Shown here: positions 1 to 2,743 of the stretch, in pieces
Position numbering within the stretch: position 1 is the first letter of the stretch
How the letters are laid out: each line of letters opens with the position of its first letter
Source: Anaerolineae bacterium
GTDB lineage: Bacteria > Chloroflexota > Anaerolineae > Aggregatilineales > Phototrophicaceae
Length of the DNA stretch: 64,000 bases
NCBI GenBank assembly: GCA_034432435.1
Contig: DAOUBS010000004.1
Span: 3,863 to 67,862 of the forward strand
Reading direction: 5' to 3'
Notes under the pieces: generated by a model
What the model saw: the letters and a program-made list of their open reading frames with translations, nothing else
The model's database searches: none
What the model was told of the DNA's origin: nothing
Position numbers and translations under genes: made by a program

Positions 1-134
1 AAACGGGCGCGACGGCGACAGATGGTTAGCGCTGTCTCAGTTTCGTTTCATCGAGGTCATGATAGAATAGGAGTGCAACTCGTAGCATCTGACTGCGTAC
101 CTGTTTATTAGCAGAGAATTGTGGAGACTGCCGT

Positions 135-608
135 GTGAGCAATTGGTGGGGCACAAAACAAGAAGTCTCGCCGCGCCTCATTATGGAGGTTGAGGCGATG
201 AAAGTCACATTCGGAAACACCTTCAAGCTGGTCGTGCCGCCATTTGGGGGGTTATTGTACTGGCAGGGCACGGTAAACATCAACCTGACCGTCGTCCCTG
301 ACCCAGCGCACACCCTCAAAATTCTCTACCCGAAAGAATATCCCAACCGCCCGGCCGAAGCGTACTGCGTGCGCCCGCGCATCTACAGCGAAAAACACCA
401 GTACGAGGACGGGCAGTTGTGCTTGTTCAACCCGCGCGACGGCGAAAACTACGGCTGGAACCCGGCCAGATCCACCGCGGTGACGGTGGCTGGTTGGGCC
501 ATCGAGTGGCTTTACTCATACTACACGTGGCGCACAACAGGAAGCTGGCCGGGCATCGAAGAGCGCGTTCGGCCTGATTCGCCCCTGCCGCGCCGTATAG
601 ACTGGTAA
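135..608 (+). CDS. Prokaryotic E2-like (UBC-fold) ubiquitin-conjugating enzyme homologue
   Basis: GTG start with GGAG 8 nt upstream; an alternative ATG is at 183. The protein has YPKEYPNRP followed by HQYEDGQLCLF, with candidate catalytic Cys96 at nt 420..422. This mirrors the E2 pattern YPxxPP...HPN...GxICL. It is the first gene of a tight E2-JAB-E1 operon. Confidence 0.75.
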   Translation: MSNWWGTKQEVSPRLIMEVEAMKVTFGNTFKLVVPPFGGLLYWQGTVNINLTVVPDPAHTLKILYPKEYPNRPAEAYCVRPRIYSEKHQYEDGQLCLFNPRDGENYGWNPARSTAVTVAGWAIEWLYSYYTWRTTGSWPGIEERVRPDSPLPRRIDW

Positions 609-614
609 GTTCGT

Positions 615-1835
615 ATGATGCAGCTTTGGGAGGCTGTGACGAGTGAATTCAACCATTTGGGCAGGCGTATACGAGGACTCGCCATGATTAGCCGTGGGAT
701 CGTACCGAATTTGATCATCGCTCAGCGCGTGGTAGACCGTGTGGTGGAGGCGGCCAAGCACTACCTCGCAGATGAGACCGGTGAGACGATGGTGGGATTC
801 GTCGTGCCAGCGGAAAACACCCCCGAAAGCATGCCGACGCTCTACGTCCTAGACACCATCAGCCCTGACGAGAACGCCATCCGCCGCTCGCACATGTTCG
901 AACAGGGCGATGAGCTTCAACAAGACATCTTCTTCTGGCTTTCGGACAACTGGGAGACCTGCCGAGAAACAGGCAAAGACTCGCGCGGGCGGCCCATTCA
1001 TCCCAGATGGAACCAGCCGCTGCGCCACATGGGCGATTGGCACAAGCAGCCCGGCTTCATGATCCAGCCCTCCGGCGGCGACTTGATGACAGCGCTGCGC
1101 TTCATGGAGGATGAGGAAAACAATTTTGACTTCTTGCTCGTCCCGATTGTGACGTTGGGGCATGACTCTGTCACCAATGAGGACGGCGCGCAGGTCAATT
1201 ATTTCACTGTGCCGCTGGCTGATGGCACCAGCCTCCGCATGGACTGGTGGTACATCCACCGCGACAGCCGTTTCTTTCAGCCGATTACCCCCCGCATCGT
1301 CCCCAATGAGCAGCTCCCTGAGCTAACGCCCTACCCGTGGCACATCCTTGATGAAGACCTTGTCAACGATGAACTGGACATTTTGGAGGTCAACGGCTAC
1401 TTCCGCATAGGCGATTTTGTGCTGTGGAACACGGACGACAAGCCGCCGCTGGAGATCTGCTTCATCATCGGGCGGCCCGGCACGAGCCAAGTCTACCTCA
1501 TCGTCACCGATTGGGACTACCCCAACACGCGGCCACGCCTCTACCTAAGCCAGTTCCAAGGCATCGACCCATCGATGTACATCTACGACATCTGGCAGCG
1601 CCTGTGGCAGCAGCGCACCCCCCCGCCGTCGCTCAGCTTCCGTTGGACGGAAGAAACCTTCGTGGTGGACTTGATCAAGGCCGTCGAGACAGCGCAGGGG
1701 ATAGCGCATCCCACGCCGCCCGGGGCCAAATCATCAGCCAATGGCCCCGTGCGCATCCCCGTACAGGTCGAAGAGAAGAAGATTGTACGCCCCACCCCCC
1801 CTACCAATGAACCCGCAAAGGACGATGTGGAATGA
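615..1835 (+). CDS. JAB/MPN-like putative deconjugating peptidase with a C-terminal UEV/RWD-like (Cys-less E2-like) domain
   Basis: Starts 6 nt after the E2 stop. The N-terminal half has ETGETMVG (conserved Glu) and DWHKQPGFMIQPSGGD (nt 1035..1082), resembling the JAMM motif HxHx7SxxD with D for the first H and a 9-residue spacer. Residues ~245-362 repeat a beta-strand pattern plus DYPNTRP (nt 1518..1535), like the E2 gene, but contain no Cys. Confidence 0.6.
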   Translation: MMQLWEAVTSEFNHLGRRIRGLAMISRGIVPNLIIAQRVVDRVVEAAKHYLADETGETMVGFVVPAENTPESMPTLYVLDTISPDENAIRRSHMFEQGDELQQDIFFWLSDNWETCRETGKDSRGRPIHPRWNQPLRHMGDWHKQPGFMIQPSGGDLMTALRFMEDEENNFDFLLVPIVTLGHDSVTNEDGAQVNYFTVPLADGTSLRMDWWYIHRDSRFFQPITPRIVPNEQLPELTPYPWHILDEDLVNDELDILEVNGYFRIGDFVLWNTDDKPPLEICFIIGRPGTSQVYLIVTDWDYPNTRPRLYLSQFQGIDPSMYIYDIWQRLWQQRTPPPSLSFRWTEETFVVDLIKAVETAQGIAHPTPPGAKSSANGPVRIPVQVEEKKIVRPTPPTNEPAKDDVE

Positions 1836-2743
1836 CATGGAACCGCGTTGAAAAACTCTACGGCACGGACAACCTGCAGCGCCTGCGAGAGAGCCACGTC
1901 GGCGTAGTCGGGGTGGGCAGCGGGGGCGGGTTCGTCGCGCTCAGCTTGGCGATGAGCGGCGTCGGCCACTTCACCCTCGTCGATGACGACATCATCGAAG
2001 AGGTCAATATCACCCGCCACGTGGCCGACCGTCGCTACATTGGCCAGAACAAAGCCGCCGCCGTCGCTGATCTGATCCTCCAGCGCAACCCACAAGCGAC
2101 CGTGACCGTGATTGAAGGGCGCATCGAGCAGCACATGGACGCGCTCGACGGGCTGGATCTGCTGGTGGTGGGCGTGGACGGCGAAAACGCCAAGTACCTC
2201 ATCAACGAGGCGTGCCTCAAGCGGCGCGTGACGGCGGTCTACGCCGGCGTCTACGAGCGCGGCGAAGGCGGCGACGTCGTCATCATTCGTCCCTACGATG
2301 GCCCGTGCTACGCCTGTTGGAGCGCCGAACTGCGCGGCAACGCAGCTGTCCGCCTTGACCCTAACACACAGCAGCTCGACTACGGCATGATCGGCGCGCA
2401 AGGCACGCTCGAAGCTGAACCCGGCCTGTGGATCCACGTGGCGAAGGTCGCCAGCGTGCAGACCGACATCGTCCTGAACGAGCTGCTGCGCGGCACGCCC
2501 GTCCACGAGGAGATGCCCGGCAACACGGTCATCTTGGCCAACAACTTCATCGAAATCGTCGACGGCGACATCAGCGCCCCGCACACCGGCCTATGGGTTA
2601 ACGTTGAGCGCGACCCGCAGTGCCTCGTGTGTGGCGACAAGGTGCGGCTGGCGATGGAGAGCCGTCAGGGGCTGTCGCTCGACGCGCTGGCCGGGCTGAC
2701 GGGCGGCATGCTCGAAGAAGAGAGCGACCAGAACGCCAACTAA
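1832..2743 (+). CDS. E1-like ThiF/MoeB-family adenylating enzyme
   Basis: ATGA stop/start overlap with the JAB gene. Has the Rossmann loop VGVVGVGSGGGFVALSLAMSGVGHFTLVDDD, then NITRH, and CYAC and CLVC cysteine pairs typical of ThiF/MoeB/E1 proteins. Confidence 0.8.
   Translation: MTWNRVEKLYGTDNLQRLRESHVGVVGVGSGGGFVALSLAMSGVGHFTLVDDDIIEEVNITRHVADRRYIGQNKAAAVADLILQRNPQATVTVIEGRIEQHMDALDGLDLLVVGVDGENAKYLINEACLKRRVTAVYAGVYERGEGGDVVIIRPYDGPCYACWSAELRGNAAVRLDPNTQQLDYGMIGAQGTLEAEPGLWIHVAKVASVQTDIVLNELLRGTPVHEEMPGNTVILANNFIEIVDGDISAPHTGLWVNVERDPQCLVCGDKVRLAMESRQGLSLDALAGLTGGMLEEESDQNAN

What the first reader, a model, noticed from the sequence alone, without database searches (positions are those of the whole stretch)
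1..2743. E2-like / JAB-like / E1-like ubiquitin-type conjugation operon (Bil-like), truncated by the left window edge
Three tightly packed plus-strand genes form the operon.
- 135..608 has UBC-fold hallmarks: YPKEYPNRP, then HQYEDGQLCLF with Cys96 at nt 420..422.
- 615..1835 has an MPN/JAB-like core: ETGETMVG and DWHKQPGFMIQPSGGD.
- 1832..2743 is ThiF/MoeB/E1-like: a GVGSGGG Rossmann loop and CYAC and CLVC pairs.

The spacing is 6 nt and then a 4-nt ATGA overlap, which implies one translationally coupled unit. This triad is the architecture described for prokaryotic ubiquitin-like conjugation systems. It was shown experimentally for the BilABCD anti-phage system, whose gene order as I recall it is Ubl-E2-JAB-E1.

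The Ubl and any target or effector gene are absent from the window. Downstream, a convergent glycosyltransferase stop overlaps the E1 stop, so the rest of the system must lie upstream of position 1. It is the only defence-like or signalling-system-like module in an otherwise housekeeping window.
Basis: partly seen in the sequence, partly recalled or inferred. Interest (0 to 1): 0.75.

Follow-up and report, generated by a model that had tools for sequence, protein, structure and literature searches.

The report
Chloroflexota E2–MPN–E1 conjugation operon
This is a complete three-gene ubiquitin-type (E2, JAB/MPN-like, E1) operon that is conserved across a whole order of Chloroflexota. It is not a truncated Bil-type phage-defence system, and its likely partner is a small protein that is not ubiquitin-like and sits downstream of the E1 in related genomes.

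Summary
Three packed plus-strand genes encode a UBC-fold E2 with invariant Cys96, a 406-aa MPN/JAB-fold protein and a 303-aa ThiF/MoeB-type E1.

- **The operon is not cut by the window edge.** In the closest complete genome it starts at the E2, and no Ubl gene lies upstream in any relative examined.
- **It is not Bil.** The E1 is a single Cys-less adenylation domain with an invariant crossover-loop Tyr. The JAMM motif reads HxQ instead of HxH. The MPN protein carries a C-terminal domain with no structural match.
- **Nothing points to defence.** The triad matched in 300 species genomes; all 80 loci kept are Chloroflexota MAGs apart from one labelled Bacteroidetes. It sits in housekeeping surroundings and is absent from the plasmid and phage collections.

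In relatives, a small, near-invariant acidic protein ("c20") follows the E1, often with overlapping stop and start codons. Its C-terminus reads …RRAW[Y/G] plus 0–11 variable residues. A NUDIX gene comes next, sometimes with a PCMT-like methyltransferase between them. In this lineage a convergent glycosyltransferase displaced that block, and c20 is absent from the window.

My best reading is an undescribed, probably housekeeping, E1–E2 conjugation system that uses c20 as its modifier. That role is inferred, not shown.

The parts
1..134 (+). Non-coding leader or promoter region upstream of the E2. It is not the tail of an upstream Ubl gene.
   Evidence: Window 26-134 aligns almost base for base with the non-coding DNA upstream of the E2 in L001 and L002. 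Those loci continue upstream with more non-coding DNA and a 56-aa gene on the other strand. No plus-strand sigma-70 consensus was found by the simple scan.
135..608 (+). E2: a UBC-fold conjugating enzyme, 157 aa, with catalytic Cys96 (nt 420-422), the YPKEYPNRP flap and an HQY...GQLCL active-site loop.
   Evidence: PADLOC E2 models match at E 7.5e-15. The precomputed Pfam family E2-CBASS hits the 96%-identical orthologue. The family profile matches UBE2L3 at E 2.4e-6 with Cys aligned to Cys. Cys96 is invariant in the 50 aligned crown-group E2 sequences and is kept in all but one of 34 distant E2s; the exception is a second E2 copy in L109.
615..1310 (+). MPN/JAB-fold domain of the middle protein (aa 1-232). 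The JAMM-like site is E57 (nt 783-785), H143 (1041-1043), Q145 (1047-1049, in place of the second His), S153 (1071-1073) and D156 (1080-1082).
   Evidence: AF2 model (pLDDT 78.6) with Foldseek PDB hits to BRCC36, Abraxas, CSN5, Rpn11 and Npl4, best E 5.6e-7. PADLOC JAB models match at E 1.2e-6 over aa 138-185. HxQ occurs in 119 of 120 homologues. More distant full-length relatives keep the canonical DWHKHPG...PSxGD. The N-terminal 23 aa are conserved, which supports the start codon at 615.
1308..1730 (+). C-terminal domain of the middle protein (aa about 232-372). It has an alpha-beta4-alpha-alpha topology and the conserved motifs YPWH, PLEIC and TDWDYPxxxP. No known fold match was found.
   Evidence: The AF2 model is confident (pLDDT 90.8). 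Foldseek against the PDB gives no hit better than E 0.74. Neither Pfam nor PDB sequence searches give a hit. hhalign against the operon's own E2 aligns TDWDYPNTRP with YPKEYPNRP only weakly (E 0.0037, probability 9%). The domain is conserved throughout the wider family.
1731..1832 (+). Disordered acidic tail of the middle protein (aa 373-406).
   Evidence: pLDDT is below 50 for residues 372-406. Length and sequence vary between homologues apart from a V-x-I-P-V-E patch.
1832..2743 (+). E1: a minimal ThiF/MoeB-type adenylating enzyme, 303 aa. It has the GVGSGGG loop (nt 1910-1930) and Zn-site Cys159/162 (nt 2306-2317) and Cys264/267 (nt 2621-2632). The crossover loop has no Cys but has an invariant Tyr184 (nt 2381-2383).
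   Evidence: Pfam ThiF matches at E 1.4e-34. NCBIfam MoeB, ThiF and UbaA match below their family cut-offs. PADLOC E1-E2 (Cap2) models match at E 2.3e-29. The best PDB sequence matches are MoeB 1e-13, TcdA, ThiF, MccB 7e-12, PaaA and UBA5. The crossover-loop alignment of 18 relatives shows no Cys and an invariant Tyr.
2740..4146 (-). Convergent PMT_2-family glycosyltransferase. It is not part of the system. It occupies the position where relatives carry c20, then NUDIX (with PCMT between them in some).
   Evidence: Pfam PMT_2 matches at E 1.7e-10. In L085 and L005 the same gene sits between the E1 and c20-PCMT-NUDIX. In most other relatives the E1 is followed directly by c20.

Best explanation
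Window 135..2743 is a complete three-gene core of a chromosomal ubiquitin-type conjugation system. The system is specific to a lineage of Chloroflexota (class Anaerolineae; Aggregatilineales and Phototrophicaceae).

**Shown**
- A UBC-fold E2 with an invariant Cys.
- A JAB/MPN-fold protein whose JAMM site reads E...HxQ...SxxD, fused to a conserved C-terminal domain with no detectable relatives.
- A minimal homodimer-type ThiF/MoeB E1 with no crossover-loop Cys and an invariant crossover-loop Tyr.
- A fixed gene order E2-MPN-E1 in every relative.
- No upstream Ubl gene.
- In relatives, a small conserved acidic protein (c20) immediately after the E1, followed by a NUDIX hydrolase. In the crown group a PCMT-like methyltransferase sits between c20 and NUDIX.
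- In this window's lineage a convergent glycosyltransferase was inserted after the E1, and the c20 block is no longer adjacent. c20 is absent from the 64-kb window.

**Inferred mechanism**
1. c20 takes the place of ubiquitin as the modifier. It is not beta-grasp-like by sequence. It has a disordered N/D/E/P-rich N-terminus and a C-terminus …[KR]x[KRQ]R[AT]W[Y/G] followed by 0-11 variable residues.
2. The MPN protein trims the trailing residues and later removes conjugates.
3. The E1 adenylates the exposed C-terminus.
4. The acyl group passes to E2 Cys96, either directly or through a Tyr184 oxyester as in Bub E1s.
5. The E2 transfers it to lysines of cellular targets.

The strong conservation and vertical inheritance point to a housekeeping or regulatory role rather than phage defence.
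For: - **Domain identities:**
- **Catalytic residues:** E2 Cys96 is invariant. The E1 has Tyr184 invariant and no loop Cys in 18 of 18 relatives. Bub E1s set the precedent of a Cys-less E1 using a crossover-loop Tyr (PMC11601596).
- **The operon starts at the E2:**
- **Distribution:** 300 species genomes matched; all 80 loci kept are Chloroflexota MAGs except one labelled Bacteroidetes, with fixed gene order. Only 194 representatives at 50% identity exist among 1.84 billion proteins. There is no plasmid or phage match. The flanks are ABC transporter, GNAT and similar genes.
- **c20 linkage in the crown group:** it lies on the same strand downstream of the E1 in 33 of 80 loci. In 12 loci the gap is 5 nt or less. 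In three more the longest-ORF start lies inside the E1, so the true gap is unclear.
- **c20 linkage in the HKH sister group:** it follows the E1 in all 9 loci whose contig extends past the E1.
- **c20 linkage in distant relatives:** a divergent small acidic ORF with the same C-terminal motif follows the E1 in L090, L100, L104, L120 and L121. L104 carries two tandem units, like a polyprotein precursor.
- **c20 conservation:** the core is nearly invariant, and its tails vary after the W[Y/G] like Ubl precursors. Bil Ubls similarly carry up to nine residues after the reactive Gly.
- **Precedents for a non-beta-grasp substrate:** the E1 scores as well against the peptide-C-terminus adenylating enzyme MccB as against ThiF. 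Type II CBASS Cap2 conjugates the C-terminus of a CD-NTase, which is not a Ubl (papers read).
Against: - c20 is not in this window, so the window alone cannot show the link.
- In 47 of 80 crown-group loci c20 is not adjacent. In one genome it lies about 13 kb away.
- Within one order, adjacency can be inherited synteny rather than a functional link.
- c20 is even more tightly coupled to PCMT and NUDIX. It could instead be their substrate, a target, or a regulator.
- The residue after W-Y is not always small, so the reactive C-terminal residue is undefined. A bulky Tyr terminus would be unusual for an E1.
- The Gln in place of the second zinc-binding His may mean the MPN domain is inactive in the crown group.
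- No structure of c20 and no model of any complex could be made.
- No experiment exists.
Confidence: 0.55

Rival explanations
1. It is a Bil-like or CBASS-like anti-phage system. Its Ubl or substrate and its effector are encoded elsewhere.
For: The order E2-JAB-E1 matches the last three genes of bilABCD. The best defence-library hits for the E2 and the E1 are CBASS E2 and Cap2 models. The precomputed Pfam family is E2-CBASS.
Against: - No Ubl, CD-NTase or effector gene is adjacent in any locus examined.
- The E1 lacks Bil's IAD-AAD-CYS architecture and any catalytic Cys.
- Lineage-wide vertical conservation and a near-invariant E2 are unlike sparsely distributed defence operons.
- No CapH/CapP or other defence genes were noticed next to the loci whose gene calls were read, but this was not searched for systematically.
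- There is no match in the phage or plasmid collections.
Confidence: 0.08
2. It is a peptide or small-protein maturation pathway rather than a protein-tagging system. The ThiF-type enzyme adenylates c20 for intramolecular chemistry or for transfer to a small molecule, in the manner of MccB or PaaA. The PCMT-like methyltransferase and NUDIX act on the same substrate, and the E2 and MPN proteins serve as carrier and peptidase.
For: - The E1 is as similar to MccB and PaaA as to ThiF.
- c20 overlaps the PCMT-like gene or NUDIX in nearly all genomes and stays with them when separated from the triad.
- The N-terminus of c20 is 18% Asn and 17% Asp, the residues on which PCMT-type enzymes act.
- c20 has a conserved recognition-like part and a hypervariable part, as RiPP precursors do.
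Against: - An invariant catalytic Cys in a canonical UBC fold, together with an MPN domain, is the signature of conjugation and deconjugation.
- The c20 core is far more conserved than typical RiPP precursors.
- PCMT is absent from most sister-group operons.
- No transporter or immunity genes are linked.
Confidence: 0.17
3. The triad conjugates a conventional beta-grasp protein (ThiS, MoaD or SAMP-like) encoded elsewhere in the genome, as in the archaeal SAMP or Thermus TtuB systems. c20 is an unrelated syntenic neighbour.
For: The E1's best family matches are MoeB, ThiF and the SAMP-activating enzyme UbaA, all below family cut-offs. The triad occurs without adjacent c20 in 47 of 80 loci, including this window.
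Against: - c20-like genes follow the E1 across deep divergence. They persist where E2 similarity to the window family falls to E 1e-12 to 1e-25 and the MPN keeps HxH.
- The E1 stop and the c20 start overlap or nearly abut in many loci.
- No ThiS- or MoaD-like gene was seen next to any locus.
- SAMP and TtuB systems need no E2.
Confidence: 0.15
4. The crown-group MPN protein is a catalytically dead scaffold, because its HxQ site cannot hold the catalytic zinc. The system conjugates irreversibly, or another protease does the processing.
For: The second zinc-ligand His is Gln in 119 of 120 homologues, while sister clades keep HxH. Eukaryotic MPN-minus subunits such as Rpn8, CSN6 and Abraxas are among the structural neighbours.
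Against: E57, H143, S153 and D156 remain invariant. That is not expected for a dead site, since MPN-minus proteins usually lose most ligands. This rival concerns one step and is compatible with the main explanation.
Confidence: 0.3

Closest known systems
Type II CBASS Cap2 (E2-E1 fusion) and Cap3 (JAB)
   Same: The E2 and the E1 give their best defence-library hits to CBASS E2 and Cap2 models, and the E2 falls in the Pfam family E2-CBASS. A JAB partner is present. CBASS also sets the precedent of an E1-E2 pair that conjugates the C-terminal tail of a protein that is not a beta-grasp Ubl.
   Different: Here the E2 and the E1 are separate proteins with the MPN gene between them. There is no CD-NTase and no effector. 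The E1 has no catalytic Cys. The MPN protein has an extra C-terminal domain and an HxQ site. The operon is chromosomal and lineage-conserved, not sporadic or mobile.
BilABCD (Type I and II Bil; Iyer 2006 classes 6d and 6c)
   Same: The gene order of the three enzymes is E2-JAB-E1. The E2 has a catalytic Cys. The putative modifier carries extra residues after its reactive end, which would need trimming.
   Different: There is no beta-grasp BilA upstream. BilD is a multidomain IAD-AAD-CYS E1 with a catalytic Cys, whereas this E1 is a 303-aa single domain without one. Bil operons sit in defence islands, some with CapH/CapP regulators (15% of Type II operons), whereas this operon sits in housekeeping synteny.
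Bub operons (6E/DUF6527; Ye et al. 2024, PMC11601596)
   Same: Both have a homodimer-type minimal E1 that lacks a crossover-loop Cys and has an invariant crossover-loop Tyr. Both pair a JAB peptidase with an E1.
   Different: The Bub E2 uses Ser and this E2 keeps Cys. Bub has beta-grasp Ubls and the BubE (DUF6527) protease, neither of which is present here. The fusion architectures differ. BubCD is only a marginal structural hit (E 0.25).
Archaeal SAMP/UbaA/HvJAMM1 and Thermus TtuB/TtuC systems
   Same: Both use a minimal MoeB-like E1 plus a JAMM protease in a housekeeping, non-defence setting. The E1 matches the UbaA model weakly.
   Different: Those systems have no E2 and use beta-grasp modifiers ending in Gly-Gly. 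This system has a canonical UBC E2 and no such modifier nearby.
Pup/PafA pupylation
   Same: If c20 is the modifier, both would use a small, acidic, largely disordered tag that is not a beta-grasp protein.
   Different: Pup is ligated by a glutamine-synthetase-like ligase through a C-terminal Glu side chain, not by an E1-E2 pair. The c20 profile shows no significant similarity to Pup (hhalign probability 0.7%).

Membership tests
BilABCD (Bil) system | A beta-grasp Ubl gene (bilA) immediately upstream of the E2 | tested here: not met
   Upstream of the E2 in the closest complete genome lie non-coding DNA, a 56-aa gene on the other strand and a phosphoribosyltransferase. In distant relatives the upstream gene is a membrane protein or unrelated. 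No Gly-Gly-ending small ORF exists in the window.
BilABCD (Bil) system | [quoted passage not shown] | tested here: not met
   The E1 is 303 aa with a single ThiF domain. The only Cys residues are the two CxxC zinc pairs and a core C128. No Cys occurs in the crossover loop of 18 relatives.
BilABCD (Bil) system | Anti-phage function and a defence-island context | tested here: inconclusive
   The neighbours are transporters and metabolic genes, there is no phage or plasmid match, and the module is inherited across an order. This is contextual evidence only. Function was not tested.
Type II CBASS | CD-NTase and effector genes together with a Cap2 E2-E1 fusion and Cap3 | tested here: not met
   The PADLOC hits cover only the E2, JAB and E1 domain models. 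The E2 and the E1 are separate genes. No cyclase or effector gene occurs in any locus.
UBC/E2 superfamily | A UBC fold with the YPxxYPxxP flap and a catalytic Cys in an H-x-x...G-x-[LI]-C-L loop | tested here: met
   The family profile aligns end to end with UBE2L3 at E 2.4e-6, with Cys aligned to Cys. Cys96 and His88 are invariant. The fold itself was not modelled.
E1-like (ThiF/MoeB/UBA) superfamily | A Rossmann GxGxxG ATP loop and an adenylation domain with a four-Cys zinc site | tested here: met
   Pfam ThiF matches at E 1.4e-34. The GVGSGGG loop, CYAC and CLVC are conserved.
Canonical E1 (thioester-forming) | A catalytic Cys in, or inserted into, the crossover loop | tested here: not met
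   No Cys lies between the two CxxC motifs in any of 18 relatives. Tyr184 is invariant instead.
JAMM/MPN+ metalloprotease | An MPN fold with the E...HxHx7SxxD zinc site | tested here: inconclusive
   The fold is met. Four of the five motif residues are invariant, but the second His is Gln in the crown group. Sister clades keep HxH. Activity cannot be tested with these tools.
Beta-grasp ubiquitin-like modifiers (as a home for c20) | A beta-grasp fold and a C-terminal Gly or Gly-Gly | tested here: inconclusive
   hhalign of the c20 profile against ubiquitin gives probability 0.08%. No PDB or Pfam match was found. The C-terminus is RRAW[Y/G] plus variable residues.

The most novel reading that the evidence does not exclude
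A free-living bacterial lineage maintains, as a vertically inherited housekeeping system, an E1-E2 conjugation pathway that differs from known ones in three ways. Its tag is a dedicated small protein that is not beta-grasp and is largely disordered (c20, C-terminus RRAW[Y/G]). Its E1 is Cys-less and works through a crossover-loop Tyr or by direct transfer to the E2 Cys. Its MPN partner has an altered HxQ metal site and a new C-terminal domain. This would be a third solution to protein tagging, beside ubiquitin-type and Pup-type systems, and it is linked in the genome to a NUDIX hydrolase and an isoaspartyl-type methyltransferase.
Probability: 0.35. Interest if true: 0.85.

Novelty: new variant of a known kind. 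Interest (0 to 1): 0.66.

Why it matters
The characterised bacterial E1-E2 conjugation systems covered in the papers read here (type II CBASS, Bil, Bub) are sporadic and mobile and are tied to phage defence. Apart from CBASS, they use beta-grasp Ubls. This operon is different in several ways:
- It is conserved across a whole order of Chloroflexota.
- It is under strong purifying selection.
- It sits among housekeeping genes.
- It seems to have swapped the Ubl for a small, unrelated, near-invariant protein.

If that holds, E1-E2 chemistry was recruited for core cell physiology in bacteria. That would give a tractable minimal system of four small proteins for three questions: how E1 and E2 enzymes recognise non-ubiquitin substrates, how a Cys-less E1 hands over to a Cys E2, and what an HxQ MPN domain does.

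It also corrects an annotation risk. Domain-based tools would call this CBASS- or Bil-like defence.

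Tried and rejected
- **Exact-sequence look-ups.** Look-ups of the window's middle protein, its E1 and P0001 found no contig, so the source contig could not be extended. 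A cluster look-up gave no accessions to tie c20 homologue P0124 to the window's genome.
- **The middle protein in family libraries.** Pfam and NCBIfam give nothing usable, whether whole or split into domains.
- **C-terminal domain as a UEV/RWD-like inactive E2.** The motif TDWDYPxxxP and the alpha-beta4-alpha topology suggested it. Foldseek against the PDB found nothing (best E 0.74). The PDB sequence profile found nothing. hhalign against the operon's own E2 was weak (probability 9%). I leave it as a hint only.
- **The Ub-like 'RLERLGG' inside c20 as the activation site.** I rejected this because the di-Gly becomes SG or AG in the sister clade, while the C-terminal RRAWY stays invariant.
- **c20 as a relative of Pup or ubiquitin.** No support.
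- **c20 or a Gly-Gly-ending Ubl elsewhere in the 64-kb window.** None found.
- **Promoter scan.** It found no plus-strand consensus promoter in 1-134.
- **Papers not held.** Ledvina 2023 and Burroughs 2011 were unavailable. The 6a-6e classification was taken from Iyer 2006.
- **Literature searches.** Four searches found no description of this Chloroflexota system.

Full report
**1. The observation**

All are on the plus strand. They are separated by 6 nt and then overlap by the 4-nt ATGA. A convergent 468-aa gene (2740..4146) overlaps the E1 stop. Pfam identifies that gene as a PMT_2 glycosyltransferase and the third ORF as ThiF at E 1.4e-34.

The first ORF is only marginal against Pfam UQ_con and RWD. 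It matches PADLOC's E2 models at E 7.5e-15, and its 96%-identical orthologue carries the precomputed Pfam family E2-CBASS. A profile of the E2 family aligns over the whole UBC core with human UBE2L3 at E 2.4e-6. The window's Cys96 falls on the catalytic Cys. Cys96 and the surrounding EKHQYEDGQLCLFNP are invariant in the 50 distinct E2 sequences aligned from related loci, and are kept in all but one of 34 more distant E2s.

The middle ORF has no Pfam or NCBIfam family. It gives weak PADLOC JAB hits (E 1.2e-6) over aa 138-185. An AlphaFold2 model (pLDDT 78.6) has an N-terminal MPN fold. Its best PDB neighbours are BRCC36, Abraxas, CSN5, Rpn11 and Npl4, at E down to 5.6e-7. So the triad is real.

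**2. Two corrections to the observation**

The JAMM motif is not canonical. It reads E57...H143-K-Q145-x7-S153-x-x-D156. Gln replaces the second zinc-binding His in 119 of 120 database homologues and in all 77 aligned genome-locus sequences. More distant full-length relatives keep DWHKHPG...PSxGD.

The operon is not cut by the window edge. The protein collection holds a 93%-identical orthologue in the complete genome of Aggregatilineales bacterium SYSU G02658. There the E2 is preceded by about 375 nt of non-coding DNA, then a 56-aa gene on the other strand, then a phosphoribosyltransferase gene. Window 26-134 aligns with that non-coding DNA.

**3. Anatomy beyond the domains**

Residues about 232-372 of the middle protein form a separate, confidently modelled domain (pLDDT 90.8). 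It has an alpha-beta4-alpha-alpha layout and the conserved motifs YPWH, PLEIC and TDWDYPxxxP. Foldseek finds nothing in the PDB (best E 0.74). A sequence profile finds nothing either. hhalign places TDWDYPNTRP on the E2's YPKEYPNRP only weakly (probability 9%). A UEV/RWD-like origin is therefore a hint, not a result. The last 34 residues are an acidic disordered tail.

The E1 is a single adenylation domain. Its nearest solved relatives by sequence are MoeB (1e-13), TcdA, ThiF, the peptide-adenylating enzymes MccB (7e-12) and PaaA, and UBA5. Its two CxxC pairs are conserved. The crossover loop between them holds no Cys in any of 18 relatives, while Tyr184 ([D/N/H]-Y-G) is invariant. The same situation was described for Bub E1s, where the crossover-loop Tyr forms an oxyester with the Ubl (PMC11601596). 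Here, however, the E2 keeps its Cys.

**4. Distribution and context**

A scan of one genome per GTDB species gave these results.
- It found 300 species genomes encoding the middle protein. All 80 loci kept are Chloroflexota MAGs, mostly labelled Anaerolineae, Aggregatilineales or Phototrophicaceae. One is labelled Bacteroidetes.
- Wherever my ORF calls resolved all three genes, the order is E2-MPN-E1.
- The neighbours are an ABC transporter, GNAT, hydrolases and the like.
- An exhaustive profile search of 1.84 billion representative proteins finds only 194 representatives.
- The middle protein has no tblastn match in 72,556 plasmids or 50,697 phage records.
- E2 identity across the order is 65-96%.

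This is the signature of a vertically inherited gene set under strong purifying selection. It is not the pattern of a mobile defence island.

**5. The missing partner**

No locus examined has a Ubl-like gene upstream. A small gene that I call c20 lies downstream of the E1 instead.

*Crown group.* c20 lies on the same strand after the E1 in 33 of 80 loci. In 12 of them the gap is 5 nt or less.

*What c20 looks like.* It has a variable N-terminus of 15-66 residues, 18% Asn and 17% Asp. This is followed by a nearly invariant core: [DE]RLERLGGEPAPxITPEEFARLQKAGQVHIDxRGRVxT...AGVSLRKRRAWY. After the core come 0-11 variable residues, most often G, GR or A.

*Sister clade with the canonical HKH site.* A metagenome scan shows c20 following the E1 in all nine loci whose contig extends that far. 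A NUDIX gene follows c20.

*Still more distant loci.* These carry a divergent small acidic ORF in the same place with the same end:
- L090: ...KRRRWYS
- L100: ...QKQRTWGTDL
- L120 and L121: ...SRTWY and ...ERTWY
- L104: two tandem units, each ending ...RKQRTWG

*What is and is not conserved.* The internal di-Gly that looks like ubiquitin's LRLRGG is SG or AG in the sister clade. The conserved feature is therefore the C-terminus.

*Relationship to known tags.* c20 has no detectable similarity to ubiquitin, Pup, any Pfam family or any PDB chain.

*Links to PCMT and NUDIX.* In the crown group a PCMT-like methyltransferase of about 400 aa overlaps the end of c20, and NUDIX follows it. The three stay together when separated from the triad.

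*This window's sub-lineage.* The PMT_2 gene sits convergently after the E1. In L085 and L005, c20-PCMT-NUDIX lie just beyond it. In the window and in CP146238 they are no longer in the locus.

**6. Most likely mechanism**

The following parts are shown:
- a UBC E2 with a conserved Cys;
- a minimal Cys-less E1 with a conserved Tyr;
- an MPN-fold protein with four of the five JAMM residues invariant;
- a conserved small downstream protein whose invariant C-terminal motif is followed by disposable residues.

The rest is inferred. c20 is the modifier. The MPN protein trims its tail, as BilC does for BilA, and reverses conjugation. The E1 adenylates the exposed carboxylate. The acyl group reaches E2 Cys96 directly or through Tyr184. 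The E2 then modifies lysines of cellular proteins.

Type II CBASS shows that E1-E2 enzymes of this branch can work on the tail of a protein that is not a Ubl (papers read). The E1's similarity to MccB fits a peptide-tail substrate. I put the whole picture at about 0.55. The narrower claim, that this is a complete, lineage-conserved conjugation core and not Bil or defence, I put at about 0.8.

**7. Rivals**

- *Defence system with parts in trans (0.08).* It rests only on domain-level resemblance and gene order.
- *RiPP-like or small-molecule maturation pathway centred on c20, PCMT and NUDIX (0.17).* It explains the tight c20-PCMT-NUDIX coupling and the Asn/Asp-rich N-terminus. It does not explain why a canonical Cys E2 and an MPN domain are kept invariant.
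- *A conventional ThiS/MoaD-type modifier encoded elsewhere (0.15).* It is hard to square with the persistence of c20-like genes after the E1 across deep divergence.
- *The HxQ MPN domain may be catalytically dead in the crown group (0.3 for that step).* This is compatible with the main model.

**8. Comparison with known systems**

Iyer et al. 2006 defined classes 6a-6e:
- 6a: a triple-module E2-E1-JAB protein with a metallo-beta-lactamase.
- 6b: an E2+E1 protein with JAB and a nucleotidyltransferase, now type II CBASS.
- 6c and 6d: now type II and type I Bil.
- 6e: now Bub.

None of these combines a stand-alone E2, an MPN protein with this C-terminal domain, a stand-alone single-domain E1 and a small partner that is not beta-grasp. 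By sequence the enzymes are nearest the CBASS Cap2 branch. By E1 chemistry they resemble Bub. By gene order they resemble Bil. By lifestyle they resemble the archaeal SAMP system. Bil membership fails on two tested defining features, the upstream Ubl and the E1 architecture. Four literature searches found no description of this Chloroflexota system. That shows absence from the held library, not proof of novelty.

**9. Verdict**

The finding is a new variant of a known kind. It is interesting because it looks like a housekeeping bacterial E1-E2 pathway with a non-ubiquitin tag. The key link to c20 lies outside this window and is untested.

Noticed in passing
L085:8001-10028; L086:6001-8076; L046:8000-8311 (not in the window): A near-invariant small protein (c20) is always overlapped by, or abuts, a PCMT-like methyltransferase of about 400 aa, and a CoA-pyrophosphatase-like NUDIX gene follows. 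The three travel together even when they are 1.6-13 kb from the E2-MPN-E1 triad. The N-terminus of c20 is 18% Asn and 17% Asp, the residues that isoaspartyl methyltransferases deal with.
   Followed up: partly
L104:6947-7366: In a distant relative the small ORF after the E1 holds two tandem c20-like units. Each ends ...EVTLRKQRTWG. The first is followed by EEPAP..., like a polyubiquitin-style precursor.
   Followed up: no
L125-L170 (for example L136:4474-6671, L130:265-2371): The metagenome scan also returned a different, more distant family: a stand-alone E2 of about 155 aa followed by a JAB-E1 fusion of 550-920 aa. In several loci the next ORF begins MSDQxGIYEITNNEGMIC.... This family was not analysed.
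   Followed up: no
L109:1481-2519: One distant locus has two tandem E2 paralogues ahead of the MPN gene. The first has Asp where the catalytic Cys should be.
   Followed up: no
L093:1247-3472 and L067 (690-aa ORF): In two loci the MPN protein and the E1 read as one continuous ORF of 741 and 690 aa. This is either a real fusion or an assembly frameshift.
   Followed up: no
window 2740-4146 (minus strand): The PMT_2 glycosyltransferase overlaps the E1 stop codon by 4 nt (2740-2743). It is present only in the window's sub-lineage (L001, L002, L005, L085), where it splits what is one operon in other relatives.
   Followed up: partly
window 135-608 versus the Pfam scan: The local Pfam copy gave no E2-CBASS (PF26395) hit for the window's E2. 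The precomputed annotation lists that family for the 96%-identical orthologue. The model is probably missing from the local library.
   Followed up: no
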